Of a stretch of DNA of 64,000 nt, positions 1,085-64,000 are shown piece after piece. The notes below the pieces were generated by a model. The model saw nothing but the letters and a program-made list of their open reading frames with translations, was not told the DNA's origin and did no database searches. Made by a program: the position numbers and the translations under genes. Within the stretch, counting starts at the first letter, position 1. Every line of letters starts with the position of its first letter. Source of the stretch: Mobula hypostoma (lineage: Eukaryota); assembly GCF_963921235.1 (NCBI RefSeq), contig NC_086097.1, positions 168,704,001-168,768,000 of the forward strand, in the 5' to 3' direction.

Positions 1085-1505
1085 TGGGTCAGGCGGTGAT
1101 GTCATGTTGTATCTGTTCAAAATATTGATAAAATCACACTTGGAGTATTGTGTACAGTTTTGGTCACCATACTACCGGAAGGTTGGATTAGCAATTGAGA
1201 GAGTGCAGAAGAGATTCACCAGGATATTGCCTGGACTAAAGGGCCGTGGTTACAAAAAGAGATTAGTTCTCCAGTCCTGATGAAGGGTCTCAGCCCAAAA
1301 CGTTGACTGTACTCTTTCCCATAGATGCTGCTGGGCCTGCTGAGTTCCTCCAGCATTTTGTGTGTGTTGTACAGGTATTTAGATAGAAAGGCATAAAGGG
1401 ATATAGGCTTTATATGAGCAAATTGTAGAAGCATAAATAGGCACAGTTGGCATGGATGCAATGGGCCAAATGACCCATTTTTGCACTAAATGATTCTATT
1501 ATCCT
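1085..1505 (+). mobile_element. CR1 3' fragment interrupted by a Penelope tail (about 1267-1370)
   Basis: HLEYCVQFWSPYYRK...IERVQKRFTRILPGL motif. Confidence 0.8.
1272..1309 (+). ncRNA. Degenerate minimal hammerhead ribozyme
   Basis: CAGTC-CTGATGA-A-GGG-TCTCAG-CCC-AAAA-C-GTT-GACTG; GAAA is mutated to AAAA. Confidence 0.65.
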
Positions 1506-5816: not shown

Positions 5817-6707
5817 CACTACCAAGCACATCATTCCCAAATTCCACTTTCCACAGGGATCATCCCCTACCCAACACCCTTGTCCATTTGCTCTCTCCAC
5901 TGATCTCCCTCCTAGCACTTATCCTTGCAAGCGAAACAAGTACCATACCTGTCCTTACAGCATTCAGAGCTCCAAACAGTCCTCCCAGGAGAGGTGATAC
6001 TTCACCTGAGTCTGTTGGGGTCAACTACTGTATCTGATGCTCTTGGTGTGACCTCCTGTATATCAGCAAGACCTGACGTAGATTGGGAGACTGCTTCACC
6101 GAGCACTTATGCTCTATCCACTAAAAAAAGCAGGATCTCCTGGTGGCCACCCATTTCAATTCTACTTCCCATTCAGACATATTTACTGCTGCGATGAGGC
6201 CACACTCAAGTTGAAGGAGCAACACCTTATATTCAGACTGGGTAGCCTCCAATCTGATGGCATGAACAACAATTTCTAAAACTTCTGGTAATTGCCCACC
6301 CCCCCCTTCACAATTCCCCTATTCCTGTTTCCCCCTCTCACCTCATCTCCTTACCTGCCCATCACCTCCCTCTGGTGCTCCTCCCCCTTCCCTTTCTTCC
6401 ATGGTCTTCTACCCTCTGTCAGATTCCCCCTACTCCAGTCCTATATATCTTTCACCAATCAACTTCCCAGCCCTTTACTTCACCCTCTCCTCTCTGTTTC
6501 ACCTATCACCTACCACTTTGTACTTCTTCCTCCCCTCCCCCCCCCCACTGTCTTGCTCTAAGTTCTCATCTTTTTTCCCCAGTCCTGATGAAGAGTCTCA
6601 GCCCAAAAGTCAACTGCTTACTCTTTTCCATAGATGCTGCCTGGCCTGCTGAGTTCATCCAGCATTTTGTGTGTTGCTTGGGTTTCCAGCATCTGCAGAT
6701 TTTCTCA
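5817..6707 (+). mobile_element. Degenerate Penelope-like element (GIY-YIG, pyrimidine tract, hammerhead tail)
   Basis: TYPCKRNKYHTCPY, homologous to 31854-32306; degenerate hammerhead motif at about 6580-6616. Confidence 0.85.
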
Positions 6708-17760: not shown

Positions 17761-19077
17761 TTCAGTCTCCTGAATAGAAACATAGAAAACATAGAAATAC
17801 AGCACAATACAGGCCCTTCGGTCCACAAAGCTGTGCCGAACATGTCCCTACCTGAGAAATTACTTAGGGTTACCCATAGTCCTTTATTTTTCTGAGCTCC
17901 ATATACCTGTCCAGGAGTCTCTTCAAAGACCTATCGTATCTGCCTCCACCACAGTCACTTGCAGCCCATTCCACGCACTCACCACTCTGCATAAAAAACT
18001 TACCCCTGACATCTCCTCTGTACCTACTTCCAAGCACCTTAAAACTATACCCTCTTGTGGCAGCCAGTTCAGCCCTGGGAAAAAGCCTCTGACTATCCAC
18101 ACGATCAATACCTCTCATCATCTTACACACCTCTATCAGGTCACCTCTCATCCTCCGTCTCTCCAAGGAAAAAAGGCCAAGTTCACTCAACCTAATCTCA
18201 TAAGGCATGCTCCCCAATCCAGGCAACATCCTTGTAAATCCTTTCCGTACCCTTTCTATGGTTTCCACATCCTTCCTATAGTGAGGTGACCAGAACTGAG
18301 CACAGTACTCCAAGTGGGGTCTGACCAGGGTCCTATATAGCTGCAACATTACCTCTCGGCTCCTAAACTCAGTCCCATGATTGATGAAGGCCAATACATC
18401 GTATGCTTTCTTAACCACAGAGCCAACCTGCGCAGCAGCCTTGAGTGTCCTATGGAATAGGACCCCAAGATCCCTCTGATCCTCCACACTGCCAAGAGTC
18501 TTACCAGTAATATGATATTCTGTCATCATATTTGACCTACCAAAATGAACCACCTCACACTTATCTGGGTTGAACTCCATCTGCCACTCCTCAGTCCATT
18601 TTTGCATCCTATCAATGTCCTGCTGTAACCTCTGACAGCCCTCCACACTATCCACAACACCCCAACCTTTGTATCATCAGCAAATTTACTAACCCATCCC
18701 TCCACTTCCTCATCAGGTCATTTATAAAAATCACAAAGAGTAGGGGTACCAGAACAGGTCCCTGAGGCACACCACTGGTCACCGACCTCCATGCAGAATA
18801 TGATCCGTCTACAACCACACTTTGCCTTTTGTGGGCAAGCCACTTCCAGACCCACAAAGCAATTTCCCCTTGAATCCCTACTTTCTCAAAAAGCCTTGCA
18901 TGGGGTACCTTGTCAAATGCCTTGTTGAAATCCATATACACTACATCTACTGCTCTACATTCATCAATGTATTTAGTCACATCCTCAAAAAATTCAATCA
19001 GGCTCGTAAGGCATGATCTGCCTTTCACAAAGCCATGCTGACTAATCATAAATCCTGCTTCTCAGGATCTTCTCCAT

Positions 19078-19902
19078 TGTGATGACAAACCAAGTTATCA
19101 GAAGATTGATGCTGATGAGAGAGATAAGAGAGACAATGGGGAAACATTCAAAATGCTAATAAGAGAGAAGAGAGAGATTAACGAGCAAGAAACACATTTC
19201 AGAATATTGACAGACCGGTTGCTTTGAACCTGAACTGTTTGAAGTTTGATGGACAGGCAATACCCCAGCAGGGGGATAAAAAGAACAGGTTCACGAAGGC
19301 ACAACACACACCACGAGATCATGAGATAACGAGACCCTGGAAGAGCGGTGTGCCCCCACAAATTGGTGGGAGTTTGGAGGTCTGGTCGCGGGAACCGACC
19401 ATAGATGCACAGGGTGAAAGGGTACGATCGGCGGGAACCTGGTTTGTGTGTCCACCCTTGCCTGGGTGCCAGCTTCACCGCGGAAGAACGGTTGTATCCG
19501 GAGTGGAGGGGTCACAGTCGGTGACAACAGAAGACATAAAAAAGGGTCCGCCCGAAAGCCAACTGCGAAGAACATCAAAGGTCTGCTGAATCAGATTTGC
19601 ATATCTCTATCTCTCTCCAATGGCACAACAGCGATTACTGCAAACTGTACTAAGCTGAACTGAACTCTGCATCACTTGAGACTGATCATTTTACCCTTGG
19701 TTGATTCCTATAGAGCTTGGTTGATTCCTATTACCCTAGTTCTGTGTATTATCATTGCCAACCTGTTGCAATTACATCCTTATGATTAGAATACTGTGTT
19801 ACTTATTTCTTTAATAAAACTTTATTAGTTTCTGTTAAACCAGACTCCAACTAAGTGGTCCATTTTTGCTGGTTTGGCAACCTAGTTACGGGGTACGTAA
19901 CA
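19078..19902 (+). mobile_element. Solo LTR, 825 bp
   Basis: TGTGA...TAACA ends with CCAT TSD (19074-19077 and 19903-19906). The empty site is visible in the paralogous CR1 at about 56160-56180. AATAAA at 19813 suggests plus orientation. Confidence 0.9.
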
Positions 19903-21042
19903 CCATCAATTTACCAACCACTGAAGTAAGACTCACTGGTCTATAATTTCCTGGGCTATCCCTACTCCCTTTCTTGAATAATGGAACAACATCCACAGCC
20001 CTCCAATCCTCCAGAACCTCTCCCGTCCCCATTGATGATGCAAAGATCATCGCCAGAGGCTCAGCAATCTCCTCCCTCACCTCCCATAGTAGCCTGGAGT
20101 ACATCTCGTCCAGTCCCAGTGACTTATCCAACTTGATGCTTTTCAAAAGCTCCTGTACATCCTCTTTCTTAATATCTACACACTCAAGCTTTTCAGTCTG
20201 CTGTAAGTCATCCCTACAATGACCAAGATCCTTTTCCGTAGTGAATACTGAAGCAAAGTACTCATTAAGTACCTCTGCTATCTCCACCGGTTCCATACAC
20301 ACTTTTCCACTGTCACACTTGATTGGTCCTGTTCTCTTACGTCTTATCCTCTTGCTCTTCACATACTTGTAGAATGCCTTGGGGTTTTCCTTAATCCTGT
20401 CCGCCAAGGCCTTGTCATGGCCCCTTCCAGCTCTTCTAATTTCTTTCTTGAGCTTCTTTCTGCTAGCCTTATAATTTTCTAGCTCTCTATCATTACCTAG
20501 CTTTTTGAACCTTTCATAAGCTGTACTTTTCTTCTTGACTAGATTTACAACAGTTTTTGTTCACCACGGTTCCTGGACCCTACCATCCTTTCCCTGTCTC
20601 ATTGGAACATATCTATGCAAAATTCCATGTGAATATCCCCAGAACATTTGCCACATTTCTTCCGTACATTTCACTGAGAACATCTGTTTCCAATTTATGC
20701 TTCCAAGTTCCTGCCCGATGGCCTCATATTTCCCCTTACTCCCATTAAACGCTTTCCTAACTTGTCTATTCTTATCCCTCTCCAATGCTATTGGAAAGGC
20801 GATAGAATTGTGATCACCATCTCCAAAATGCTCTCCCACTGATAGACCTGACACCTGACCAGGTTCATTTCCCAATACCAGATCTCGTACAGCCTCTCCT
20901 CTTGTAGGTTTATCTACATATTGTGTCAAGAAACTTTCTTGAACACACCTAATGAACTCCACTCCATCTAAACCCCTTACTCTAGGGACATGCAATCGAT
21001 ATTTGGGAAATTAAAATCTCCCACCACGACAACCCTGTTATT

Positions 21043-22413
21043 GGTTGGGAAGTTGTTGGAGTCGATTGTCAAGGATGAGGTTACAGAGTACCTGGAGGCA
21101 TATGACAAGATAGGCAGAACTCAGCATGGATTCCTTAAAGGAAAATCCTGCCTGACAAACCTATTACAAATTTTTGAGGAAATTACCAGTAGGCTAGACA
21201 AGGGAGATGCAGTGGATGTTGTATATTTGGATTTTCAGAAGGCCTTTGACAAGATGCCACACATGAGGCTACTTAACAAGATAAGAGCCCATGGAATTAC
21301 GGGAAAGTTACATACATGGATAGAGCATTGGCTGATTGGCAGGAAACAGAGAGTGGGAATAAAGGGATCCTATTCTGGTTGGCTGCCGGTTACCAGTGGT
21401 GTTCCACAGGGGTCCGTGCTGGGGCTGCTTCTTTTTACATTGTACATCAACCATTTGGATTATGGAATAGATGGCTTTGTGGCTAAGTTCGCTGACGATA
21501 CGATGGTAGGTGGAGGGGCCGGTAGTGCTGAGGAAACGGAGAGTCTGCAGAGAGACTTGGATAGATTGGAAGAATGGGCAGAGAAGTGGCAAATGAAGTA
21601 CAATGTTGGAAAGTGTATTGTTATGCACTTTGGCAGAAGTAATAAACGGGCAGACTATTATTTAAATGGAGAAAGAATTCAAAGTTCTGAGATGCAACGG
21701 GACTTGGGAGCCCTTGTACAGGATACCCTTAAGGTTAACCTCCAGGTTGAGTCGGTAGTGAAGAAGGCAAATGCAATGTTGGCATTCATTTCTAGAGGAA
21801 TAGAGTATAGGAGCAGGGATGTGATGTTGAGGCTCCATAAGGTGCTGGTAAGACCTCACTTGGAGTACTGTGGGCAGTTTTGGTCTCCTTATTTAAGAAA
21901 GGATGTGCTGACTTTGGAGAGGGTACCGAGAAGATTCAGTAGAATGATTCCAGGAATGAGAGGGTTAACATATGAGGAACGTTTGTCCGCTCTTGGACTG
22001 TATTCCTTGGAGTTTCGAAGAATGAGGGGAGACCTCATAGAAACATTTCGAATGTTGAAAGTCATGGACAGAGTGGATGTGGCAAAGTTGTTTCCCATGA
22101 TGGGGGAGTCTAGTACGAGAGAGCATGTCTTAAGGATTGAAGGGCGCCCATTCAGAACAGAAATGCGAAGGAATTTTTTTAGTCAGAGGGTGGTGAATCT
22201 ATGGAATTTGTTGCCACGGGCAGCAGTGGAGGCCAAGTCATTGGGTCTATTTAAGGCAGAGATTAATAGGTATCTGAGTAGCCAGGGCATCAAAGGTTAT
22301 GGTGAAAAGGCGGGGGAGTGGGACTAAATGGGAGAATGGATCAGCTCATGATAAAATGGCAGAGCAGACTCGATGGGCCGAATGGCCAACTTCTGCTCCT
22401 TTGTCTTATGGTC
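21043..22413 (+). mobile_element. 5'-truncated CR1 of a second family with an open RT frame
   Basis: Uninterrupted RT (QHGF, LDFQKAFD, GVPQGSVLG, KFADD) to the stop at 22327; tail tcttatggtctta; host CR1 resumes at 22414. Confidence 0.92.
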
Positions 22414-23300
22414 TTATTACACTTTTCCAGAATTTGGATCCCTATCTGCTCCTTGATGCCCCTGTTACTATTGGGTGGTCTATAAAAAAACACCCAGTAG
22501 AGTTATTGACCCCTTTCTGTTCCTAACTTCCACCCACAGAGACTCCATAGCCAATCTCTCCATGTCTTCCTCCTTTTCTACGGCCATGACACTCTCTCTG
22601 ATCAACAGTGCCACCCCCCCCCCACCTCTTTTGCCTCCCTCCCTGTTCTTTCTGAAACATCTAAAGCCTGGCACTCAAAGAAACTATTCCTGCCCCTGAG
22701 CCATCCAAGTCTCTGTAATGGGCACAACATCATAGATCCAAATACTGATCCATGCTCTAAGCTCATCCGCTTTGTTCATAATCTCAAACCATCGGTCTGA
22801 TCATGTCCCTTTTTGATTACCTGCCTATTCCCCCTCTCACACCGTTTCCAAGCTTTCTCTATTTGTGACCCAACTGCCTCTTCCTCCGTCTCTTCAGTTT
22901 GGTTCCCACCCCCCAGCATTCCTAGTTTAAACTCTCCCCAATAGCCTTAGCAAACCTTCGCAAAGTGAATGATCCAGAGTTCATCCATTTCCAGCTTCAA
23001 CTTCTTAACATGGTTTGTTAGAAGCAGTAGCTGGATACACCTCTTGCAGATGTACTCATCAGGGAGATTGGAAGTCTCCTTACCTTCCCACGTTCCACAA
23101 GATGAGCATTCCACTATCCTGCGTGGCATCTCCACTGTCTACGTGTGCAAAAAGAAAGAATAAGTAACAAAACTACCTAGGGCCTACACAGCTCCTTGCC
23201 AAAGCCTCAACTCCCCACTTTAATACTGGTCCACTCACACAATGGCTGCAGTGTTTAACTTCTCTTAATTGTACTTTGCCAAATGCCTAATTATGTACAA

Positions 23301-25256: not shown

Positions 25257-26455
25257 TTAACAGGTTTAGAAAGCAATGCAGGCAAACAGAATTAGTGTGG
25301 CTGGCACAAGGGCTGGATTGGATGTGATGGGGTGAAGGACCTGCTTCAGTGCTTGATCACTCTATGACTAATAGCAGTCATTGTTCTCCATTCTTTAGCC
25401 CCTGCATTTCCACCGCTATAACACAGACTTGAATACCCAATGAAAAAATTATTAAATGATGGAAACGATTTTCAAAATAGAAACCTTGCTGGTTGAAACT
25501 GCCCTGAGCTTGTGGAAGGAACTAGATGAATGTAATTTTAAGGAAAGAGCACACTACTTTCTGCATTCTCTCATGAGTATTCATCCTTTCTCATTTATTC
25601 CTTCTGAGGGTGTGAGCATTTCACTCCTTAACCAGCCCAGGTTTCCATCAATCACCCTCATGAACTTCATCTTATGAAAATCTCCCAGAGCTGAACGGGC
25701 AACTTCCCAAGATCTTGATCCAGTAGCAATGAAGGAATCATGCTGTATTTTGGTCAGGATGGTGTATCTGACCAAAACAGTTAATGCATTGGCCCACATT
25801 ACTGATGCAAGTTTTTCTTTCACAATTTTCAAATCGATTCAATTACTTTAATGCCACATTTGGAACTTGTGTCCAGGGATCAATAGTCTAGGTCTCTGCA
25901 TAACTTAATCACCATGCCAGTGTACCCTTTATTGATGACAGTTTGTCTGTGGGATCAGAAACTTGTCTTTGGGCCAAATAGGACACAGATGTTTCCCAGC
26001 TGACTGATCCAATGGGAAAGTGTAGCTGAGGAGCATTGGAGCAACTAGGGCTGTTTGCTGGAATTGTGCTATGAAAACCATCTGCGAACAGAGGGTTTGG
26101 AAAAGGGACTGTTAATGTGAAATGAGGTTTGGTGAGTGGGGACAGAAGACACTTGCTGCTGGTAAGTAGGTTAACTATTTATTTACAGTGCTATTGCCAA
26201 CTGAATCCTCCAAATTTTCATTTTCATTGTAACATTCAAGATGTCTTTCGATCCCTTCAGATTCTTTGTAATTCCTAACTTGTTGTAGTGAAATCGTTTC
26301 ATTTTCACTCCTGCCCGTTTCTGGTATCTTCAACAGTTCTGAATTCTTTTACTGCTTATTTCTTGCCAACTATTAGTGACAAAAATCACTGCTATTTGAA
26401 CACAAACATATGCAACTATTTAAAAACTGTGCACACTAAGCACAGTGTAGTGTCT

Positions 26456-27730
26456 GTCGTTGTTGTTCGTCCTTCGTAGTCGAAGATGACCATGGCTTCA
26501 AAGTCAAATGGGAGATTGGTGGCTGTGGGTCCGGAGGTGACTGATGAGGCCAATCCGGGCCCTGAAGGCTCGCCCACATGTGGGACACAAGTGGGTGGGT
26601 GCTGTCGTGGCAGTGGATGCTGCTCGGGCCTTGCGCACAGCACGCTTTCGTTGCGCCTCGATGATGCGCCTGACTGCAGCTGCACGGGCTCCTGTGGTGA
26701 TCTTGCTGCGCCAAGCTGGACGGTCGAGGGCAGGCGTCTCCCACGTGTTGATGTCGACACCCAGTCCTTTGCGGGACACTTTCAGGCAGTCTTTGTAACG
26801 TTTCTTCTGCCCCCCCGACTGAGCGCTTGCCCTGACACAGTTCTCCGTACAGCAGCTGCTTAGGCAATCGGCTGTCTGGCATTCTGACCACATGTCCAGC
26901 CCACCTGGCTTGGGCTTTCAGCAGGAGGGTGTAGATGCTGCAGAGCCCAGCTCGTTCCAGGATTTCCGTGTCGGGGACTTTGTCCTGCCACCTGATGTGG
27001 AGGAGTCTGCGGAGACAGCTCAGGTGAAAGTGGTTGAGCTGTTTGGTGTGTCTGCTGTAGACAGTCCAGGTCTCGCTGGCGTAAAGGAGGGTGGTAAGGA
27101 CCACTGCACAGTAGACCTTCAGCTTGGTGGTAAGGTTGAGTCCTCTCCGCTCCCAGACGTTCTCACGGAGTCCCCCAAAGGCGACGCTGGCTTTGGCAAT
27201 CCTGTTGTTGACCTCAGCGTCTATGTTCACTGCGCGAGAGAGTATGCTGCCCAGGTAGGTGAAGTTGTCGGCTGCCTGGAGGTTCTGGCCCTTCACCGTG
27301 ATGCGTGGCTCCTGGTATGGCTTTCCTGGGGCAGGCTGGTACATAACTTCGGTCTTTTTGGTGCTGATAGTGAGATCGAAGTTGTCGCAGGCTTGTGAGA
27401 AGCAGTCTATTTCACGCTGCATCTCCTGCTCTGTGCTGGCGTTGAGTGTGCAGTCATCAGCAAACAACAAGTCTCTGATGACAGTCTCTCGCACCTTTGT
27501 AACTGCCTGCAGGCGCCTAAGGTTGAACAACCTGCCATCAGTCCTGTATCTGACGTGGATTCCTTCTTCGTAGTTATGAAAGGCATCTGTCAGCATGGCA
27601 GAGAATACCATACTGAACAGAGTCGGGGCAAGAACGCAGCCTTGTTTGATGCCATTTGTCACTGGGAAGGCCTCCGACTCGTCGCCGTCATCCAGAACTT
27701 TCACCATCATACCGTCGTGGAACTGCCAGA
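26456..27730 (-). mobile_element. Young 5'-truncated RTE-clade LINE
   Basis: GIKQGCVLAPTLF, LLFADD and C-terminal CPTCGRAFRARIGLISHLRTH; (CAA)n tail; 9-bp TSD GTAGTGTCT (26447-26455 and 27731-27739); single +1 frameshift in the C7 run at 26810-26816. Confidence 0.93.
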
Positions 27731-28106
27731 GTAGTGTCTAACGGCCACACAACTGCACACGTCTGATGCAAGTTAGAAACTGTTCCAAACAGTCTTCTGC
27801 CCCAAATAGATGAAGGGAATCCTGGCTATTTTCTTATTGGTTTTTGTTCTTTAAGAGTTGGCCGAAATAAATGGCTACCCCGATCAACTAATATCCCAAT
27901 TAAGTGGAATGCATTGTATGCTCAAAATTACAGATAAGACAAAAATTCATTCTTGCATTTGTCTTTACTCCCAAAGCTTCATGAATAAACTGAAAAAATA
28001 CTTGGAACAAACATGTAATATCCAATAAACACATTCCAAAGTATAAAAAGAAAAAAAAATGGATGGATGGGGCCTCCACACTCACACAATTTCTTAAAGA
28101 AACTAA

Positions 28107-29125
28107 CTGCATGGAGGTCGGTCACTGGCGGAGTGCCTCAGGGATCTGTCCTGGGACCCTTACTCTTCGTGATTTTTATAAATGACCTGGATGAGGAAGT
28201 GGAGGGATGGGTTAGTAAGTTTGCTGATGACACAAAGGTTGGAAGTGTTGTGGATAGTGTGGAGGGCTGTCAGAGGTTACAGCGGGACATTGATAGGATG
28301 CAAAACTGGGCTGAGAAGTGGCAAATGGAGTTCAACCCAGATAGGTGTGAAGTGGTTCATTTTGGTAGGTCAAATATGATGGCAGAATATAGTATTAATG
28401 GCAAGACTCTTAGCAGTGTGGAGGATCAGAGGGATCTTGGGGTCCGAGTCCATAGGATGCTTAAAGCAGCTGCGCAGGTTGTCTCTGTGGTTAAGAAGGC
28501 ATACAGTGCATTGGCCTTCATCAATCGTGGAATTGAATTTAGGAGCCGAGAGGTAATGTTGCAGTTATATAGGACCCTGGTCAGACCCCACTTGGAGTAC
28601 TGTGCTCAGTTCTGGTCGCCTCACTACGGGAAGGATGTGGAAGCCATAGAAAGGGTGCAGAGGAGGTTTACAAGGATGTTGCCTGGATTGAGGAGCATGC
28701 CTTATGAGAATAGGTTGAGTGAACTCGACCTTTTCTCCTTGGAGCGACGGAGGATAAGAGGTGACCTGATAGAGGTGTATAAGCCGATGAGAGGCATTGA
28801 TGGTGTGGATAGTCAGAGGCTTTTTCCTAGGGCTGAAATGGTTACCACAAGAGGACACAGGTTTAAGGTGCTGGGGAGTAGGTACAGAGGAGATGTCAGG
28901 GGTAAGTTTTTTACTCAGAGAGTAGTGAGTGTGTGGAATGGGCTGCTGGCAATGGTGGTAGAGGCGGAAATGATAGGTCTTTTAAGAGACCTTTGGATAG
29001 GTACATGGAGCTTAGAAAGATAGAGGGCTATGGGTAACCTTAGTAATTTCTAAGGTAGGGACATGTTCGGCACAACTTTGTGGGCCGAAGGGCCTGTATT
29101 GTGCTGTAGCTTTTCTATGTTTCTA
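28107..29125 (+). mobile_element. 5'-truncated CR1
   Basis: GVPQGSVLGP, KFADDTK and RPHLEYCAQFWSP; same family and tail as 17776-23140. Confidence 0.92.
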
Positions 29126-30564: not shown

Positions 30565-31271
30565 ACAAAGCCCAAGAAGACATTGTACTTTTGAAGACAC
30601 TTCAACTGCGAGTCTGTTGGGGTCATATATTGTGTCTGGTGCTTCCAGTGTGGCCTCCTGTATATTGGTGAGACGATGTAGATTGGGAGACCACTTCACC
30701 AAGCACCTACATTCGTCCGCCAGAAGAAGCAGGATCTCCCAGTGTCCACTCACTTCCCATTTCCACTGCAGTATGTCAATCCATGGTCAGTCCTCTACTG
30801 TTGCCATGAGGCCACACTCAGGTTGGAGGAACAACACCTTATATTCCGTCTGGGTAGCCTCCAATCGATGGCATGAACATCGATTTCTCGAACTTCCGCT
30901 AATGCCCCCCACCCTCTTCACCATTCCTTGTTCCCTTTTCTCTCTCTCTCTCTCACCTTATCTCCTTGCCTGCCCACTGCCTCCCTCTGGTACTCCTCCC
31001 CCTTTTATTTCTCCCATGGCCTTCTGTTCTCTCCTATCAGATTCCCCCTTCTCCAGCCCTGTATCTTTCACCAATCAACTTCCCAGCTCTTTACTTCACT
31101 CCTCCCCTCCCCTTTTCACCCATCACCTGTTATTCCCCCTCCCCTCCCCCACCTTTTAAATCAACTCATCTTTTTTTCTCCAGTCCTGCTGAAGAGTCTC
31201 GGCCCGAAACGTTGACTATACTCTTTTCCATAGATGCTGAGTGCTGAGTTCCTCCAGCATTTTGTGTGTGG
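30565..31271 (+). mobile_element. Degenerate Penelope-like 3' fragment
   Basis: GIY-YIG remnant (LYIGETRCRLGDHF..HL); hammerhead motif at 31181-31218 with CTGCTGA. Confidence 0.85.
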
Positions 31272-31345
31272 TACTTTCGAAGATTAAGTTGTTTGATTGA
31301 AATATTAACTGAAGGATAGGGGCATGTAAAAGATCTAAAGGCTCA

Positions 31346-32700
31346 TTTCCAACACCTCCCTCCCCTTTCTAGATCTTTCTGTCTGTATCTCTGGAGACAG
31401 CTTATCTACTGATGTCTACTATAAGCCTACTGACTCTCACAGCTATCTGGACTATTCCTCTTCTCACCCTGTCTCTTGCAAAAACGCCATCCCCTTCTCG
31501 CAATTCCTCTGTCTCCGCCGCATCTGCTCTCAGGATGAGGCTTTTCATTCCAGAACGAGGGAGATGTCCTCCTTTTTTAAAGAAAGGGGCTTCCCTTCCT
31601 CCACCATCAACTCTGCTCTCAAACGTATCTTCCCCATTTCATGCACATCTGCTCTCACTCCATTCTCCCGTCACCCCACTAGGAATAGGGTTCCCCTGGT
31701 CCTCACCTACCACCCCACCAGCCTCCGGGTCCAACATATTATTCTCTGTAACTTCCGCCACCTCCAACGGGATCCCACCACTAAGCACATCTTTCCCTCC
31801 CTCCCCTCTCTGCTTTCCACAGGGATCGCTCCCTACGCGACTCCCTTGTCCATTTGTCCCCCCCATCCCTCCCCACTGATCTCCCTCCTGGCACTTATCC
31901 GTGTAAGCGGAACAAGTGCTACACATGCCCTTACACTTCCTCCCTCACCACCATTCAGGGCCCCAGACAGTCCTTCCAGGTGAGGCGACACTTCACCTGT
32001 GAGTCGGCTGGGGTGATATACTGCGTCCGGTGCTCCCGATGTGGCCTTCTATATATTGGCGAGACCCGACGCATACTGGGAGATCGTTTTGCTGAACACC
32101 TACGCTCTGTCCGCCAGAGAAAACAGGATCTCCCAGTGGCCACACATTTTAATTCCACATCCCATTCCCATTCTGATATGTCTATCCATGGCCTCCTCTA
32201 CTGTAAAGATGAAGTCACACTCAGGTTGGAGGAGCAACACCTTATATTCCGTCTGGGTAGCCTCCAACCTGATGGCGTGAACATTGACTTCTCTAACTTC
32301 CGCTAATGCCCCACCTCCCCCTCATACCCCATCCGTTATTTATTTATATACACACCTTCTTTCTCTCTCTCTCCTTTTTCTCCCTCTGTCCCTCTCACTA
32401 TACCCCTTGCCCATCCTCTGGGTTCCCCCTCTCCCCCTTTTTCTTCTCCCTGGGCCTCCTGTCCCATGATCCTCTAATATCCCTTTTGCCAATCACCTGT
32501 CCAGCTCTTGGCTCCATCCCTCCCCCTCCTGTCTTCTATCATTTTGGATCTCCCCCTCCCCCTCCCACTTTCAAATCTCTTACTAGCTCTTCCTTCAGTT
32601 AGTCCTGACGAAGGGTCTTGGCCCGAAACGTCGACTGTACCTCTTCCTAGAGATGCTGCCTGGCCTGCTGCGTTCACCAGCAACTTTGATGTGTGTTGTT
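31346..32700 (+). mobile_element. Young Penelope-like element (RT C-terminus, Cys linker, GIY-YIG, hammerhead tail)
   Basis: CKRNKCYTC...GVIYCVRCSRCGLLYIGETRRILGDRFAEH...VATHFN...EQHLIFRL..LQPDGVN; near-TSD TAAAGGCTCA (31336-31345) / TAGAGGCTCA (32701-32710). Confidence 0.93.
32601..32636 (+). ncRNA. Minimal type I hammerhead ribozyme, intact core
   Basis: AGTC-CTGACGA-A-GGG-TCTTGG-CCC-GAAA-C-GTC-GACT: stem I AGTC/GACT, stem II GGG/CCC, vestigial palindromic stem III (ACGT); predicted cleavage after 32632. Confidence 0.8.
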
Positions 32701-32879
32701 TAGAGGCTCAAATGTTGACCCTAGTTCAGGCCAGAATTTCTCCCTCAAGCCACACTTACAAAAGCACATTTTCTAGTCATTATCACCTAAATAAGTGCAT
32801 ACATTTTCTGAAAAATTTCCTACATTACCACTGGTGGCGCTCGGTTTCTTTCAGGATTGTGCCTCTGGACCTGTGGAGT

Positions 32880-35800
32880 GGCATCAGGTTTGGATGGCGT
32901 CTTGTCAAAGACAATGTTCTTGGTTGCTGGTGTCACGATCATCACTGAGAGGCAAGTCCGGTGGTCGTAATGTGTCTATCTTGTCTCAGGTGTGTTCTTT
33001 GGCTGGGCATCCAGTATATGATTTAAATGGCATCTCCATGTATGCTCTCCAACATCCACTGTGTAAATCAGTGGTCCAGTTTTTGTAGCTATCCTACCAG
33101 GTGTCCACTTGTCTTCTCAGTAATCATGCGCTAGGACTTCCTGTTCTTGGCAGGTGTTTGATTTATCGTTTCATGAACAGAGTTCCAATACACAAAAAGG
33201 AAATTGTCCACCTTGTGCTGTAGAGAAGTCACCTCCTTGTCCATAGCTTTTATGCACTTATTGAATGCTTGGATGAACCTTTTAGCTAACCCATTCACGT
33301 CTGGGTGGCAAGGAACTAACTTGAAATATCTGATACCATTTTTCTTCATGAATATGCTGAATTCTTCTGATGTGTACTCTGGTCCATTGGCACTCAAAGG
33401 TAAGCCGTTCCTGGTGAAGATCGTCCTCAGAGTGGAAACAGTCTTTTCTGAGATGGTTGACTTCATTGGTATGATCTCCGGCCACTTCAAATGAGCAGTC
33501 ACAGCAATCAAAAACATGGAGTTCATGGATGGTCCAGCAAAGTCAATATGTACTCTCTGCCATAGTGATGATGGCCACTCCCATGGGTGTAACAGTGCCT
33601 CTCGGGGTGCATTTTGAACTTCTTGGCATCCCAAATACCTCTACGCCAAGCTTTCAATCTGTTTAATTATTCCTGGTGAGACTCTTCATCATGTCTGTAT
33701 CCAAGTGTCCTTCATGCAGATTTTCTAACACTCTGTTGTGCAGCTTAGAGGCAACCACAATACCAGATCCAAAGATCAGCGTTCTTTGACATACTGACAG
33801 TTGTCTCGTTTCACTGAGAACTCTGGAAACATAGGTTACCTTGATTTCGCCATCCTTGCTTGGTGAATGTCATAGACTTTTGACAATGTCAGGTCATTCC
33901 CTGTTTCTCTTTGTATTTATTACCGGCAACTATTCCACTGTGGAAGACACGACAAGCCATCAGCATTGCTGTGTTGTTAGGTGCCCTTGAACTCTATGTC
34001 ATAAGAGTGGGTTCACATCGCAGCTGGGTAGCAGACATCATTAGAATTTCCTTCCTGAGATTGAAAATGAACACAAGGGGCTGCTGAACTGTCACCTGCA
34101 TAAACCTTTGTCCGTAGGGGTTGTGGTGGAACTTCTTTATTCTCATACTAGACTAAAGGCCTCTCAATCAATCTGTGCGTAGTTGAATTCTGCCCTCATT
34201 AGTGATCTTGAAGCAAATACAATCGGATGTTCAGATCCATCTTTTGACAAAACAGTTCAGATGCCATTAGGGGACACATTGCACATAAGTCTGATGGGCA
34301 GTGATGGGTTATAATGGGTGAGCAGTACATCTGATGTTATTAGTCTCTTTTGTTTCCTTGAACATTCTATCACATCTTTCTGACCACTTCCCACTTAGCT
34401 CCTGTCTGTAATAGTGTGTTCAATAGGTGCAGCACGCTAGCAATGATTGAGAGAAACCGATGGTAGTAGTTTACAAGGCCCAAGTATGACCTGAGTCGTG
34501 ACACATTTTCTGGTTTGGGTGCCTGTAGTACTGCTTCAATCTTCTCTTGTGACTTATTGTGACATGTCCGCAATATTCATTCTTGAAAACCCACATTTCT
34601 CTCTCTTTACACACAGACCATACTCACTCAGCTGGTAAGCACTTTACCAAGAGTTCTGGAGGTGCTCTTCACCATTCTTGCCAGTCATGATGATGTCATC
34701 AAGATAACATTGTGTTCCTGGGACATCTTGGAACACTTGGTCCATTGTTCTTTACCAAATTGTTGGAGCTGTTGCGATGCCAAAGACAAGATCGTTATAC
34801 TGAAACACTCCCTTGTGAGTGTTGATTGTGAGGAACTTCCTGCTTGACTCCTCGATCTCTATTTACGGATAGGCTTGTGACAAGTCAATCTTTGAAAATC
34901 TCTCCCTGCCTGCCAAAGGTGCAAAAATGTCTTCTATTCATGGCAAGGGACACTGCACAGTACGCAGCACCGGGCTGATGCTTTGCTTTGAAATCCCCAC
35001 ATATGCGAACAGTTCCAGCCTTCCAGTTCTTGATGACTGGGACAAAGGGGGTGGTCCAATTACTCTATTCAACCTTGGAGAGAATTCCAGACACCTCCAA
35101 GCTCTGAAGTTCAGCATCCACTTAAGGGCGTAATGTGCGTAAGGCACTGGACGTGCTTTATGGAATCTTGGTGTCTCTGCTTCATCCCCTTCAATTCTGA
35201 CCTTCATGCTTTGAGTTTGAGTTTACCAATACCTTTCTCAAACACCTTCTGATCAGCATTAAGCAACTGTGACCGTCTCTGGTTAGTGCTACCATTTGGG
35301 CTGCAGTTGCCTGTTGATGACACATCGAGAGCTTTGATTGTGTGTCAGTCGAGTTGGATTTTTCTCAACCATTCACATCCAAAAAGTGCTGGCCCTCCAC
35401 TTTTCGACAAAAATCTCTAACTGTTGTGTTTGGCCTCCATATATATCACATTCATTTTCAGTTTGCCTTGGGAGACACTTTTTTTGCTAGTGTAGGTCTT
35501 TAGCATTACTGAGGTCTTCTCTAATGGGTGCTTAGAAAACAGTCTGTTATAGTCAGCCTCTGAAATGATAGACAAAGCTGACCCAGCTATTACCAGCAGA
35601 TTAGGGCACAAGTGATCTCGTAAAATTGTAACAATTTCATTGAACACCTCGCTAGCTGGCTTTTCAGCAGTTACAAGGTTGCATAAGAGACTGTGTGGTC
35701 TAGCATCCATTAAGCTAAGAAGCATAGAGGCCTTTTATTGCTCATCCACATTGTTTGCCTTACAATACAGTTCAACCCTCTTGATATACGATTCCCCATC

Positions 35801-42598: not shown

Positions 42599-42826
42599 AG
42601 AACAACACACACAAAACACTGGTGGAATTCAGCAGGCCAGGCTGCATCAATGGAAAAAAGTAAACAGTTGACGTTTTGTGCTGAAACCAGTCCCGATGAA
42701 GGGTCTCGGCCTGAAACATCAACAGTTTACTATTTTCCATAGATGCTGCCAAGCCTGCTGAGTTCCTCCAGCATCTTGTATGAGTTGCTTTGGATTTCCA
42801 GCATCTGCAGATCTTCTCGTGTTTGT
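42599..42826. mobile_element. Fold-back mini-element made of two opposed Penelope tails
   Basis: Left arm (about 42600-42687) is the reverse complement of the right arm (about 42700-42795); 9-bp TSD CAGCAAATT (42590-42598 and 42827-42835). Confidence 0.85.
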
Positions 42827-54845: not shown

Positions 54846-57800
54846 TCATAGAAACATAGAAAACCTACAGCACAATATAGGCCCTTTGGCCCACAATGCT
54901 GTGCCGAACATGTACTTAATTTAGAAATTACCTAGGGTTACCCATAGCCCTCTGAACTCCATACACCTGTCCAGGAGTCTCTTAAAAGACCCTATCATAT
55001 CCGCCTCCACCACTATCGTCGGCAGTCCATTCCACACACTGTCCACTCTCTGCATAAAAAACGTACCCCTGACATCTCCTCTGCACCTGCTTCCAAGCAC
55101 CTTAAAACTATGCCCTCTCATGTTAGCCATTTCAGCCCTGGGAAAAAGCCTCTGACTATCCACACGATCAATGCCTCTCATCATCTGATACACCTCTATC
55201 AGGTCACATCTCATCCTCTGCCACTCCAAGGCGAATAGGTTGAGTGAACTCAGCCTTTTCTCATAAGGCATGCTCCCCAATCCAGGCAACATCCTTGAAA
55301 ATCTTTGCACCCTTTCTATAGTTTCCATATCCTTCCTGTAGTGAGGTGACCAGAATTGAGCACAGTACTCCAAGTGGGGTCTGACCAGGGTCCTATACAG
55401 CTGCAATATTACCTCTCGGTTCCTAAATTCAATGCCACGATTGATGAAGGCCAATGCACCATATGTTTTCCTTAACCATAGAGTCAACCTGTGCAGCAGC
55501 TTTGAGTGTCCTATGGACTCGGACCCAAAGATCCCTCTGATCCTCCACAATGCCAAGAGTCTTACCATTAATACTATATTCTGCCATCATATTTGACCAG
55601 CAAAATGAACCACTTCACACTTATCTGGGTCGAACTCCATCTGCCACTTCTCAGCCCAGTTTTGCATCCTATCAACATCCCGCTGTAACCTCTGACAGTC
55701 CTCCACACTATCCACAACACCCCCAACCTTTGTGTCATCAGGAAATTTACTAACCCATCCCTCCACTTCCTCATCCAGGTCATTTATAAAAATCACGAAG
55801 AGAAGGGGTCACAGAAGAGATCCCTGAGGCACACCACCGGTCACTGACCTCCATGCAGAATATGACCCACCTACAACCACTCTTTGCCTTCTGTGAGCAA
55901 GCCAATTCTGGATCCACAAAGCAAGGTCCCCTTGGATCCCATTCCTCCTTACTTTCTCAATAAGCCTTGCATGGGGTACCTTATCAAATACCTTGCTGAA
56001 ATCCATATACACATCTACTGCTCTACCATTAATGCGTTTAGTCACATCCTAAAATGTTCAACTCGGCTCGTGAGACACGACCTGCCTTTGACAAAGCCAT
56101 GCTGACTGTTCCTAATGATATTATGCCTCTCCAAATATTCATAAATCCTGCCTCTCAGGATCTCCTCCATCAACTTACCAACCACTGAAGTAAGACTCAC
56201 TGGTCCATAATTTCCTGGGCTATCTCTACTCCCTTTCTTGAATAATGGAACAACATCTGCAACCCTCCAATCCTCCGGAACCTCTCCCATCCCCATTGAT
56301 GATATAAAGATCATCACCAGAGGCTCAGCAGTTTCCTCTTGCCTCCCACAATAGCCTGGGGTACATCTTGTTGGGTCCTGGTGACTTATCCAACTTGATG
56401 TTTTCCAAAAGCTCCAGAACATCCTCTTTCTTCATGTCTATATGCTCAAGCTTTTCAATCCCACTGTAAGTCATCTCTACAGTTACCAAGGTCCTTTTCC
56501 GTAGTGAATATTGAAGCAAAGTACTCACAAAGTACTTCTGCTATCTCCTCCGGTTCCATACACTCTTTTCCACTGTCACACCTGATTGGTCCTATTTGCT
56601 CATGTTTTATCCTTTTACTCTTCACATACTTACAGAATGCCTTGGGGTTTTCCTTAATTCTGCTCGCCAAGGCCTTATCATGGCCCCTTCTGGCTCTCCT
56701 AAATTCATTCTTAAGCTCCTTCCTGCTAGCCTTATAATCTTCTAGATCTCTATCATTACCTAGCTTTTTGAACCTTTCATAAGCTTTTCTTTTCTTCTTG
56801 ACTAGATTTTCAACAGCCTTTGTACACCACGGTTCCTGTATCCTTCTGTCCTTACCCTGTCTCATTGGAACGTACCTATGCAGAACATCATGCAAATATC
56901 CCCTGAACATTTGCCACATTTCTGCTGTACATTTTCCTGAGAACATCTGTTCCCAATTTATGCTTCCAAGTTCTTGCCTGATAGCTTCATATTTCCCCTT
57001 ACTCCAATTAAACACTTTCCTAACTTGTCTGTTCCTATCCCTCTCCAAAGCTATGGTAAAGCAGATAAAATGGTGATCATCATCTCCAAAATGCGCTTCC
57101 ACTGAGAGACCTGACATCTGACCAGGTTCACTTCCGAATACCAGATCAAGTACAGACTTTCCTCTTGTAGGCTAATCTACATATTGTGTCAGGAAACCTT
57201 CCTGAACACACCTAACAAACACCACCCCATCTAAACCCCTTGCTTTATGGAGATGTCAATCAATATTTGGGAAATTAAAATCTCCCAGCATGACAACCCT
57301 GTTATTATTACACCTTTCTAGAATCCGTCTCCCTATCTGCTCCTTGATGTCCCTGTTAATATTGGGTGGTCTATAAAAAACACCCAGTAGAGTTACTGAC
57401 CCCTTCCTGTTTCTAACTTCCACCCACAGAGACTTAGTGGACAATCCCTCCATGATTTCCTCCTTTTCTGCAATCGTGACACCATCTCTGATCAGCAGTG
57501 CCACGCCCCCACCTCTTTTGCCTCTCTCCCTGTCCTTTCTGAAACATTTAAAGCCTGGCACTTGAAGTAAGCATTCCTGTCCCGAGCCATCCAAGTCTCT
57601 GTAATGGCCACAGTATCATAGCTCCCAGCACTGATCCACGCTCTAAGCTCATCCGCTTTGTTCATGATTCTTCGCATTAAAATAGACACATCTCAAACCA
57701 TCAGTCTGAGCGGATCCCTTCTCTATCAGCTGCCTATCCTCCCTCTCGCACTGTCTCCAAGCTTTCTCTATTTGTGAGCCAACCGCCCCTTCTTCCACCT

Positions 57801-58128
57801 CTTCAGTTCGGTTCCCACCTCCAGCAATTCTAGTTTAAACTCTCCCCAATAACCTTAGCAAACCTCCCTGCCAGGATATTGGTCCCCCTCAGATTCAAGT
57901 GCAACCCATCCTTTTTGTACAGGTCCCACCTGCCCCAACAGGTCCCAATGATGCAGAAATCTGAATCCCTGCCCCCTATTCTAATCCCTCAGCCACACAT
58001 TTATTCTCCACCTCACTTTATTCCTATACTCACTGTCGCGTGGCACAGGCAGTAATCCCAAGATTACTACTTTTGAGGTCCTGCTTCTCAACTTCCTTCC
58101 TAACTCCCTGTAGTCTGCTTTCAGGACC
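54846..58128 (-). mobile_element. CR1 LINE, about 3.3 kb (end of ORF1, APE, RT, tail), frameshifted
   Basis: VAITETW, GGGVALLI, GVFYRPP, GDFNFPNID, QHGF and RPHLEYCAQFWSP. Confidence 0.93.
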
Positions 58129-62871: not shown

Positions 62872-64000
62872 GCGAAGATCTGCAGATGCTGGAAATCCGA
62901 GCAACACACACACAAAATGCTGGAGGAACTCAGTAGGCCAGCAGCAACTATGGAAAAGCACACAGTCGACATTTCAGGCCAAAACCTTTCAACAGGACTG
63001 CAGGAAAAATGCTGAGGAACAGATTTAACAGGTGGGGGGGAAGGGGGGAGAGAATCACAAGGTGGTTAGTGAAACCTGGAGGGGGAGGGATGAGGTAAAG
63101 AGCTGGGAAGTTGACTGGTGAAAGAGAGGGGAAAGGGGATGGGAATGGGAAATGGTGAAGTGGGGGGGCATTACTGGAAGTTTGAGAAATTGATGTTCAT
63201 GCCATCAGGTTGTAAGCTACCCAAGCAGAATACAAGGCGTTGTTCCTCCAACCTAAATGTGGCCTCATCACAACAGTGGAGGCGGCTATGGATTGACATA
63301 TCGGAATGGGAATGGGAAGTGGAATTAAAATGGGTGCCCCATGCAAGATTCCACTTTTTCTGGCGGACAGAGGGTAGGTGCTTGGCAAAGTGGTCTCCCA
63401 GTTCCCAATCTACACCAGGTCGCACCAATATACAGGAGGCCACACCACGAGCACTGAACAAAGTATGTGACCCCAACAGACTCACAGGTAGTGAGGGAGG
63501 AGGTGCAGGGGCAAGTGTAGCACATGCTCCACTTGCAAAGATAAGTGCCAGGAAAGAGATCAGTGGGGAGGGACAATCGGACAAGGGAGTTGCAGAGGGA
63601 GCAATATCTGTGGAAAGCAGAAAGGGGGGAGGGGAGGGAAAGATGTGCTAGGTGGTGGAATCCCATTGGAGGTGGAGGAAGTTTCAGAGAATTATGTGCT
63701 GGATGTGGAGGCTGATGGGGTGACAGATGAGGACAAGAGGAACCCTATCCCTGGTAGGGTGATGGGAGGATGGGGCAAGCGCAGACGTGCATGAAATGGA
63801 AGAGATGCGGTTGAGGGCAGCGTTGTGGTGGAGGAAGGGAAGCCCCTTTCTTTGAAAAGGGAGGACTTTCCTTCATTCTAGAATGAAAAGCCTCATCCTG
63901 AGAGCAGAGGTGGCAGAGACGGAGGTACTGAGAGGAGAAGGGAATGGTGTTTTTACAAGTAGCAGGGTGGGATGAGATATAGTCCAGGTAGCTGTGAGAG
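62872..64000 (-). mobile_element. Penelope-like element running off the window edge
   Basis: GIY-YIG remnant; degenerate hammerhead at 62963-63000 (CTGTTGA..GAAATGTC). Confidence 0.88.

What the first reader, a model, noticed from the sequence alone, without database searches (positions are those of the whole stretch)
32601..32636. Dispersed family of minimal hammerhead ribozymes in Penelope-like element tails
Seen: the same motif of about 36 nt occurs at 1272(+), 6580(+), 31181(+), 32601(+), 41684(-), 42688(+) and 62963(-). Two copies (32601 and 41684) keep the full catalytic core CUGAnGA / GAAA / GUC, with stem I AGUC:GACU, stem II GGG:CCY and an extra A after A9. Stem III is only the palindrome ACGU. 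Established: Penelope-like elements carry such minimal type I hammerheads, which typically cleave efficiently as dimers. Inference: this genome holds a high-copy self-cleaving RNA family that processes Penelope transcripts and may cut host transcripts. The class is known; this family may be unannotated.
Basis: partly seen in the sequence, partly recalled or inferred. Interest (0 to 1): 0.72.

Follow-up and report, generated by a model that had tools for sequence, protein, structure and literature searches.

The report
Penelope retrotransposon hammerhead in a ray
The repeated 36-base motif is real but ordinary: it is the small hammerhead-ribozyme signature that Penelope-like jumping genes are already known to carry, mostly decayed here, with one modest extra lead that a splice site may sit on the ribozyme's edge.

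Summary
Observation confirmed. All seven copies are present, plus a partial inverted eighth. Only 32601(+) and 41719-41684(-) pass a strict minimal-hammerhead descriptor; 100 composition-matched random sequences gave 0 hits. The motif lies about 290 nt behind the GIY-YIG stop of 5'-truncated Neptune-type Penelope-like elements in a stingray/devil-ray-type genome. Four of six insertions tested have 10-15 bp target-site duplications. The motif matches the 2014 min-HHR consensus position by position, so it is a new member of a known kind. This scan found the family before: 44 notes in this genome fit. 'Cleaves efficiently as dimers' and 'cuts host transcripts' are unsupported. Published activity is low even for dimers, five of seven copies have broken cores, and most changes are CpG decay. 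One lead I found neither in print nor in the scan's notes: an acceptor-like AG sits in or just before stem I. One NCBI ray gene model joins a host exon exactly there, and another uses an AG inside the core. This echoes the Drosophila Penelope intron that ends at helix I. Cryptic exonisation explains it equally well. Interest 0.22.

The parts
32600..32637 (+). Intact minimal type I hammerhead motif (stem I 5 bp, CUGACGA + extra A, stem II 4 bp, GAAA-CGUC, predicted cut 32632/32633)
   Evidence: matches the published consensus
31346..32700 (+). 5'-truncated Neptune-type Penelope-like element carrying the flagged motif; short 3' end at +100
31336..31345 (+). Left target-site duplication (10 bp, 1 mismatch)
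32701..32710 (+). Right target-site duplication
31346..31800 (+). C-terminal RT fragment, in a different reading frame from the endonuclease part
   Evidence: ORFs 31339-31983 and 31785-32306; homologues P0001-P0008
31902..31928 (+). CX4CxxC zinc-finger-like linker (Neptune/Nematis mark)
   Evidence: definition
32010..32306 (+). GIY-YIG endonuclease and stop codon (TAA 32304-32306)
   Evidence: Pfam PF01541 E=2.7e-4, 21.6 bits, just under the 22.6 cut-off
32307..32599 (+). Pyrimidine-rich (81%) spacer between stop and hammerhead; candidate intron, with acceptor-like AGs at 32597-98 and 32601-02
   Evidence: use of the 32597-98 equivalent in gene model P0016
41587..42152 (-). Second insertion of the same subfamily; core-intact motif at 41720-41683 (G10.1.U11.1), long tail, 15-bp TSD
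30598..31270 (+). Insertion of the second subfamily; motif at 31181-31218 with A6C and C17U; 13-bp TSD
42599..42826 (.). 228-bp head-to-head insertion: partial inverted arm (42599-42687 -) plus direct arm starting at stem I (42688 +, U4C) with long tail; TSD 9 bp exact
5817..6706 (+). Decayed insertion; motif at 6580 (G12A, 1-nt deletion), long tail; no TSD found
1267..1369 (+). About 100-bp insertion that begins a few bases before stem I; motif at 1272 (G12A); no TSD found
62874..64000 (-). Decayed insertion running off the window end; motif at 63000-62963 (A6U), long tail; TSD not tested

Best explanation
The motif is the minimal type I hammerhead built into the terminal repeat (pLTR) of a very abundant Neptune-type Penelope-like retrotransposon of rays. 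Shown: each copy is the 3' end of a separate insertion, 5'-truncated, with the optional 3' tail and sometimes an inverted arm. Inferred from related systems: in RNA from tandem source elements, two motifs pair through the ACGU palindrome and swap stem I strands. Each core then cuts the other copy after GUC, slowly, and probably only when the element's own protein helps it fold. Inferred: this matters, if at all, for the life cycle of source elements. The dispersed copies seen here are passengers that lose the motif mainly by CpG deamination, because four CpGs lie within the 36 nt.
For: Position behind the GIY-YIG stop in 5 of 5 copies long enough to test (171-294 nt). Protein homologues at 77-88% identity in Mobula and Hypanus and 60-65% in carpet sharks. 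CX4CxxC linker and conserved C, C, H, H. TSDs in 4 of 6 insertions tested, against 1.6% for random window pairs. Two 3' end classes, +89/+100 and +133/+138, matching the optional 30-40 bp tail. Inverted-arm structure as described for Penelope. Match to the min-HHR consensus, including the extra base after A9 and the C-G-U-C centre in 11 of 44 listed motifs, counted by eye. Substitutions at CpG sites 15 of 55 cells against 11 of 203 elsewhere in the motif, p=2e-5. At non-CpG sites the core differs in 3 of 70 cells against 50 of 394 in the downstream flank, p=0.04; this is weak and the copies are not independent.
Against: No cleavage was measured and no RNA ends could be read, because only contigs were served. 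No full-length or tandem element lies in the window, so a 5' pLTR and a cis dimer were not seen. Nearest-neighbour folding prefers inactive folds: by 4.0 kcal/mol for the bare monomer, 7-12 kcal/mol with long flanks, and -35.9 against -16.7 kcal/mol for the dimer (this model ignores core tertiary contacts). No two-sided covariation appears among the window copies.
Confidence: 0.85

Rival explanations
1. Splice-coupled switch; this adds to the best explanation rather than replacing it. The pyrimidine-rich spacer is the element's own retained 5'-UTR intron, running from a donor at the ORF stop (CG|GTAA) to an acceptor in stem I. In the CAG|UCC subfamily, splicing swaps the 5' strand of stem I and cuts it from 5 to about 3 pairs, so only unspliced RNA keeps a competent ribozyme. 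In the CAG|UUAGUC subfamily the acceptor is shifted 4 nt upstream and stem I survives.
For: Mobula birostris model P0016 reads ...TAQT-VSPDEG where its near-identical relative P0033 reads ...TAQT-GAHEQ, which puts the join exactly at CAG|TTAGTCC. Hypanus METTL8 isoform X3 (P0020) carries an in-frame insert of about 53 residues starting at EGSRPET between two stretches adjacent in METTL6 structures, implying an AG inside the core. P0027 (DPDEG) and P0019 (RVSPDEG) fit but are ambiguous. P0004 leaves the element right after NFR. Loose-end consensus upstream of 32601 shows CTAAC or CTGAC 22 nt before the AG end in 2 of 4 runs. One contig in a guessed-RNA run joins 32298 to 32606, junction letters unknown. 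D. virilis precedent and an explicit prediction that other PLEs share a 5'-UTR intron.
Against: The GT at the stop is present in only 2 of 5 window copies (6580, 63001); 32601, 41719 and 31181 have CT. No C>G row for 32303 appears among the 40 rows shown (85 rows hidden). My acceptor descriptor passes 0.5% of all 8,842 AGs, but also other AGs in the spacers (rel -143, -254, -117, -78) and the AG at +48 to +52 in 5 of 7 copies; the stem I AG passes in only 2 copies. The AG is part of stem I, so its conservation needs no splicing. The joint is 1 of 15 shown, with 197 hidden. The junctions are read from protein models, not from RNA.
Confidence: 0.25
2. The gene-model junctions are ordinary cryptic exonisation. 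A pyrimidine-rich repeat with huge copy number offers chance acceptors when it lands in the sense strand of an intron, with no meaning for the element or the ribozyme.
For: Different AGs are used in different models (P0016 against P0020). Several spacer AGs score as well. Only 5 and 13 proteins were hit in two large searches, several of them unrelated or read-through.
Against: The clearest junction falls on the stem I border, where D. virilis has its intron end. However, my query covered only the downstream exon, so other acceptors could not have been seen.
Confidence: 0.55
3. Dispersed copies act on host RNA: intact motifs pair in trans, or with neighbours, and cut pre-mRNAs.
For: Two copies in 64 kb are intact, and the family is present in contigs of two guessed-RNA runs.
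Against: Intermolecular pairing is only 4+5+5 bp. The neighbour of 32601 has A6C, so it cannot serve as the core that cuts 32601. Published activity is low or protein-dependent. The copies downstream of the SPIRE-like exon are antisense. Decay follows CpG mutability.
Confidence: 0.07
4. The motif is conserved for a reason other than cleavage, such as a protein-binding or priming structure or overlap with the ORF start, and is catalytically vestigial in this lineage.
For: Anole hammerhead mutants insert normally in vitro. Naiad elements thrive without the motif. Inactive folds are favoured.
Against: The whole core, G10.1-C11.1 and both stems are kept in two subfamilies whose spacers are only about 67-70% alike. 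The anole motif does cleave with protein and is rescued by C3G/G8C.
Confidence: 0.2

Closest known systems
Minimal hammerheads (min-HHR) of metazoan Penelope-like elements (Cervera and de la Pena 2014, PMC4209133)
   Same: Type I; CUGANGA plus one extra base; G10.1-C11.1; no helix III beyond a palindrome (CGUC centre as in fugu, lamprey, Xenopus); 4-5 bp helix I; in the pLTR; mostly solo dispersed copies.
   Different: Helix II is 4 bp, shorter than the 7-8 bp in schistosomes but within the listed range. No cartilaginous fish appears in the part of their alignment I read. The upstream flank is C/U-rich rather than U-rich.
Neptune clade Penelope-like elements (Craig et al. 2021, PMC8557442; Arkhipova et al. 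2013, PMC3846280)
   Same: RT, then a CX2-5CxxC linker, then a C-terminal GIY-YIG with CCHH; pLTR with hammerhead; optional tail; inverted arm; TSD.
   Different: Only truncated copies are seen here. No tree was built, so Nematis is excluded by host and homologues only.
Poseidon element PAc of the green anole (Frangieh et al. 2024, PMC11167929)
   Same: Vertebrate PLE with a minimal hammerhead in the pLTR and two 3' end classes.
   Different: PAc lacks the Neptune linker and its ORF starts at stem II; the ORF start of the ray element was not found.
Drosophila virilis Penelope 5'-UTR intron (Schostak et al. 2008, PMC2377424; Cervera 2014)
   Same: An intron end coinciding with the 5' side of helix I, giving different spliced and unspliced hammerheads.
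   Different: That intron is 75 nt and shown by RT-PCR; here it would be about 290 nt and is only inferred from gene models.
Non-LTR retrozymes (PMC7229834; bioRxiv 10.64898/2026.07.22.740005)
   Same: Type I hammerheads in animal repeats related to PLE pLTRs; retrozymes were reported in the one chondrichthyan sampled.
   Different: Retrozymes are tandem arrays, mostly with canonical motifs; these are dispersed, TSD-flanked ends of coding elements.

Membership tests
min-HHR of PLEs | CUGANGA core, GAAA, NUH with helices I and II | tested here: met
   2 of 7 copies
min-HHR of PLEs | Extra nucleotide between 9 and 10.1; G10.1-C11.1 | tested here: met
   A32612; G32613-C32624; G.U in the 41719 copy
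min-HHR of PLEs | Palindromic 15.2-16.2 with no helix III | tested here: met
   ACGU at 32628-31
min-HHR of PLEs | Located in the terminal repeat of a PLE | tested here: met
   171-294 nt behind the GIY-YIG stop in 5 of 5 long copies; a 5' pLTR was not seen
min-HHR of PLEs | Compensatory changes across families | tested here: inconclusive
   Only one-sided changes (C-G to U.G at the end of stem I; G-C to G.U at 10.1-11.1) in 7 copies; no genome was available
min-HHR of PLEs | Self-cleavage as dimer or with protein | not testable with these tools
   Needs a bench assay; only contigs were served
Neptune PLE | C-terminal GIY-YIG with CCHH | tested here: met
   (Pfam score just under cut-off)
Neptune PLE | CX2-5CxxC linker between RT and EN | tested here: met
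   31902-31928
Neptune PLE | Optional 30-40 bp tail, inverted arm, TSD | tested here: met
Neptune PLE | RT phylogeny placing it in Neptune | not tested
   no tree built
Non-LTR retrozyme | At least two consecutive tandem units, each with a complete hammerhead | tested here: not met
   Copies are separate insertions
Rfam hammerhead families | Covariance-model hit | tested here: not met
   No hammerhead hit at E<=10
Intron-bearing PLE (Penelope type) | Spliced 5'-UTR intron in the pLTR | tested here: inconclusive
   Acceptor used in host gene models; donor GT in 2 of 5 copies; descriptor not specific

The most novel reading that the evidence does not exclude
Vertebrate Neptune elements keep a spliceosomal intron whose 3' splice site lies inside hammerhead stem I, so splicing and self-cleavage are alternative fates of one RNA: spliced RNA has a disarmed ribozyme and is translated, unspliced RNA keeps it and is the retrotransposition template. 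This may be general among Penelope-like elements: by eye, 20 of 43 published motifs have a YAG within 10 nt before C3. As a by-product, a very large number of ray copies supply ready-made acceptors that put hammerhead exons into host mRNAs.
Probability: 0.25. Interest if true: 0.55.

Novelty: new member of a known kind. Interest (0 to 1): 0.22.

Why it matters
As found, it extends a 2014 RNA class to rays, at very high density (eight motif-bearing arms in seven insertions in 64 kb), in a form that Rfam does not detect. That is useful for annotation but not surprising. If the splice-site lead holds, it would link two unexplained Penelope traits, intron retention and a weak hammerhead, in one testable switch. 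It would also give the first vertebrate case I could find of the predicted 5'-UTR intron.

Tried and rejected
No whole genome is held, so there is no genome-wide count and no test of subfamily covariation. Rfam gave no hammerhead hit. A family pattern scan of metagenome contigs gave 0 matches. A protein-guided scan gave 9 distant loci (28-49% identity) from 73 candidate stretches; a relaxed descriptor found no hammerhead in any of the 9, but 5 of them have under 450 bases after the match, so this says little. All 24 listed runs were contigs, so RNA ends at 32633 could not be examined; the 'none' in the ends table is no evidence. Summed contig depth (about 1e7 over the motif against 22 in the unique flank, run X1) is not a copy number and was not converted. 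The C>T share at 32624 (45, 57, 50 and 12% in the four runs) suggests a tolerated G.U variant, but the matching G>A row was not shown, so asymmetry is untested. A second joint (32312 to 32651, one contig, X14) ends after the AG at 32649-50; it is unresolved. My acceptor descriptor was rejected as a test because other spacer AGs pass it. P0017 is read-through of a copy starting just before stem I; P0023 and P0031 read through inverted arms; P0018 starts inside a copy; P0010 fits an internal deletion; P0024 is an unrelated repeat protein, and P0022, P0025, P0026 and P0029 were not opened. None of these was counted as a splice junction. No TSD was found for the 1272 and 6580 copies. Accessions and cluster members for the gene models could not be looked up, so their RNA support is unverified. 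Lunse et al. (dimer cleavage) is not held and was seen only as a reference title. Retrozyme membership was rejected because there are no tandem units. bioRxiv supplements are closed and file 1 of the Cervera supplement was not searchable; either may list a cartilaginous fish.

Full report
Observation. All seven copies were recovered, and an eighth partial arm at 42599-42687(-) was found by self-comparison. At 32601 the numbering is C3=32605, A9=32611, extra A=32612, stem II 32613-16/32621-24 with a 4-nt loop, G12=32625, A15.1=32628 and C17=32632, so the predicted cut is before 32633. Stem I has five pairs counting a closing U.G. A strict descriptor that checks pairing finds two motifs in 64 kb on both strands (C3 at 32605+ and 41715-) and none in any of 100 first-order Markov sequences. 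Rfam 15 reports no hammerhead at E<=10. The other five full copies have G12A (two), A6C, A6U or U4C.

What carries it. The 32601 motif ends a 1,355-bp insertion (31346-32700) flanked by a 10-bp duplication with one mismatch. Duplications of 10-15 bp were found for 4 of 6 insertions tested; random window pairs give such a match in 1.6% of trials. The insertion holds the end of a reverse transcriptase, a CX4CxxC linker and a GIY-YIG domain (Pfam E=2.7e-4, just under the cut-off). Of 15 longer homologues, the closest full-length matches are NCBI models from Hypanus sabinus and Mobula hypostoma at 77-88% identity, then whale and zebra shark at 60-65%. The window is therefore most likely from a stingray or devil ray (inference). 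The linker and the conserved C, C, H, H residues are the marks of the Neptune/Nematis type (PMC8557442 and PMC3846280, passages). The motif lies 171-294 nt behind the stop in all 5 copies that reach it, after a spacer of about 80% pyrimidine. The 3' ends fall at +89/+100 or +133/+138 in the 4 copies measured, matching the optional tail of Penelope-like elements. The 228-bp insertion at 42599-42826 is a head-to-head pair with the tail on one arm, as described for Penelope. Two subfamilies are present, with spacers only about 67-70% alike but the same motif. Contigs of four public runs pile up heavily on the element, 218,314 pieces in one DNA run, and drop to flank level after about 32720. This shows high abundance but is no copy number. 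No genome was held.

Comparison with what is known. Cervera and de la Pena 2014 (PMC4209133; parts 1-2 of 4 of the text, supplement file 2 part 2 of 3 and search passages) define the minimal hammerhead of Penelope-like elements. Their consensus has CUGANGA plus one base, G10.1-C11.1, a palindromic centre and a short helix I, and they report it in Xena, Poseidon and Neptune elements of fishes and in thousands of solo copies in coelacanth and Xenopus. The ray motif meets each feature; by eye, 11 of the 44 rows I saw have the same C-G-U-C centre. No shark or ray is in those rows, and shark, Callorhinchus and Leucoraja do not occur in supplement file 2 (file 1 was not searchable). Searches for hammerhead+Penelope+shark (4 papers), Penelope+Mobula+transposable elements (0) and Penelope+elasmobranch+repeat+genome (4) listed no description of this family (listings only, except passages of PMC6155905). 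A 2026 preprint reports retrozymes in its one chondrichthyan (part 1 of 5 and passages). The scan itself has noted the family repeatedly: 44 notes in this genome fit the look-up, and several in other sharks. These are unchecked notes and not independent support.

How it most likely works. In a tandem source element, two motifs can pair through ACGU and exchange stem I strands, so that each core cuts the other copy after GUC (inference from the published dimer model). Efficiency is doubtful. The 2014 paper saw no monomer activity and low dimer and trimer activity, and a review calls rates very low even as dimers (PMC6765202, passages). The anole element cleaved only with its protein, did not need cleavage to insert, and showed no RNA-seq ends at the site (PMC11167929, parts 1-2 of 4). 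Lunse et al., whose title says such variants cleave as dimers, was seen only as a reference. Folding agrees that help is needed: inactive folds beat the hammerhead by 4 kcal/mol for the bare monomer, 7-12 kcal/mol with long flanks, and about 19 kcal/mol for the dimer (core tertiary contacts are not modelled). The window copies look like passengers. Within the motif, 15 of 55 cells at CpG sites differ from the majority, against 11 of 203 elsewhere (p=2e-5). At non-CpG sites the core differs in 3 of 70 cells against 50 of 394 downstream (p=0.04), a weak sign of selection among source elements. The only same-strand neighbour of 32601 is 1,419 nt upstream and has A6C, so it cannot cut 32601. The two copies behind the SPIRE-like first exon are antisense to it. 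Nothing supports cutting of host transcripts.

Stem I begins at, or four bases after, a CAG preceded by pyrimidines, and the loose-end consensus of divergent contigs has CTAAC or CTGAC 22 nt before the end of the AG in 2 of 4 runs. I searched proteins with a profile of the peptide that the motif would encode (5 and 13 hits, two shared). The Mobula birostris model P0016 reads TAQT-VSPDEG where its close relative P0033 reads TAQT-GAHEQ, which places a join exactly at CAG|TTAGTCC. Hypanus METTL8 isoform X3 has an in-frame insert of about 53 residues beginning EGSRPET between two stretches that are adjacent in METTL6 structures, implying an AG inside the core. Two more hits (P0019, P0027) fit but are ambiguous. 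The rest that I opened are read-through, inverted arms or unrelated; four were not opened. One model leaves the element right at the ORF stop (P0004), and one contig in a guessed-RNA run joins 32298 to 32606 with unknown letters between (1 of 15 joints shown, 197 hidden). In D. virilis the Penelope intron ends at the 5' side of helix I (PMC2377424 passages), and Craig et al. predict 5'-UTR introns in other elements. By eye, 20 of 43 published motifs have a YAG within 10 nt before C3 (intronless row left out, taxa not independent, no background computed). A paper search on Penelope, hammerhead, splice site and exonization (13 papers with at least 3 terms, 12 listed) and three word look-ups in the scan's notes showed nothing on this.

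Against the lead. The GT at the stop is present in only 2 of 5 copies, and 32601 itself has CT. My acceptor descriptor passes 46 of 8,842 window AGs, but also four other AGs within the spacers and the AG at about +50 in 5 of 7 copies, while the stem I AG passes in only 2 copies. The AG is needed by stem I anyway. The junctions come from protein models whose RNA support I could not check, and my query could see only acceptors at or near the motif. Cryptic exonisation of an abundant pyrimidine-rich repeat is at least as likely (0.55 against 0.25).

Verdict. This is a new member of a known kind: a minimal hammerhead in ray Neptune-type elements, mostly decaying. Interest 0.22. The most novel reading not excluded is a splice-or-cleave switch at stem I (probability 0.25, interest 0.55 if true); split-read analysis of ray RNA would settle it.

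Noticed in passing
window 10637-10370 (-): First coding exon of a SPIRE-like gene (KIND domain, E=2e-20) with a clear donor after it; the 1272 and 6580 copies lie downstream on the opposite strand.
   Followed up: partly
window 1267-1273 and 42688: Two of seven insertions, and probably the copy in P0017, have their 5' border within a few bases of the start of stem I rather than at the cleavage site. This may mark a reverse-transcription stall or switch point at the hammerhead.
   Followed up: partly
window 32633-32650 and equivalents: A second acceptor-like AG lies 48-52 nt after the start of stem I in all 7 copies, just before an ATG in 6 of them; one guessed-RNA contig joint ends exactly after it.
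   Followed up: partly
window 32607-32610 with 32629-32632: In the C7 subfamily, GACG of the core can pair with CGUC, giving an inactive fold 4 kcal/mol below the hammerhead monomer.
   Followed up: partly
window 32624: C>T (G10.1.U11.1) is carried by about half of the contig depth in 3 of 4 runs and 12% in the fourth; it may be a propagated subfamily variant rather than decay.
   Followed up: no
P0008 (Stegostoma), C-terminus: The read-through peptide SLMKGLRPKRQLL about 125 codons after the endonuclease fits a related hammerhead in zebra shark; DNA not seen.
   Followed up: no
window 17781-22957, 28107-29125, 54847-57865: Several LINE RT-like fragments at 82-89% identity to each other; read as CR1-type from their translations, a recalled label.
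   Followed up: no
window 26416-27737 (-): A 433-codon open RT/endonuclease-like frame, read as an RTE-type LINE fragment (recalled label).
   Followed up: no
window 33131-35734 (-) and 60611-61636 (-): Integrase/protease-like LTR-element remnants and a Tc1-like transposase remnant with 87% inverted ends at 60327-60508 and 61694-61872 (labels recalled).
   Followed up: no
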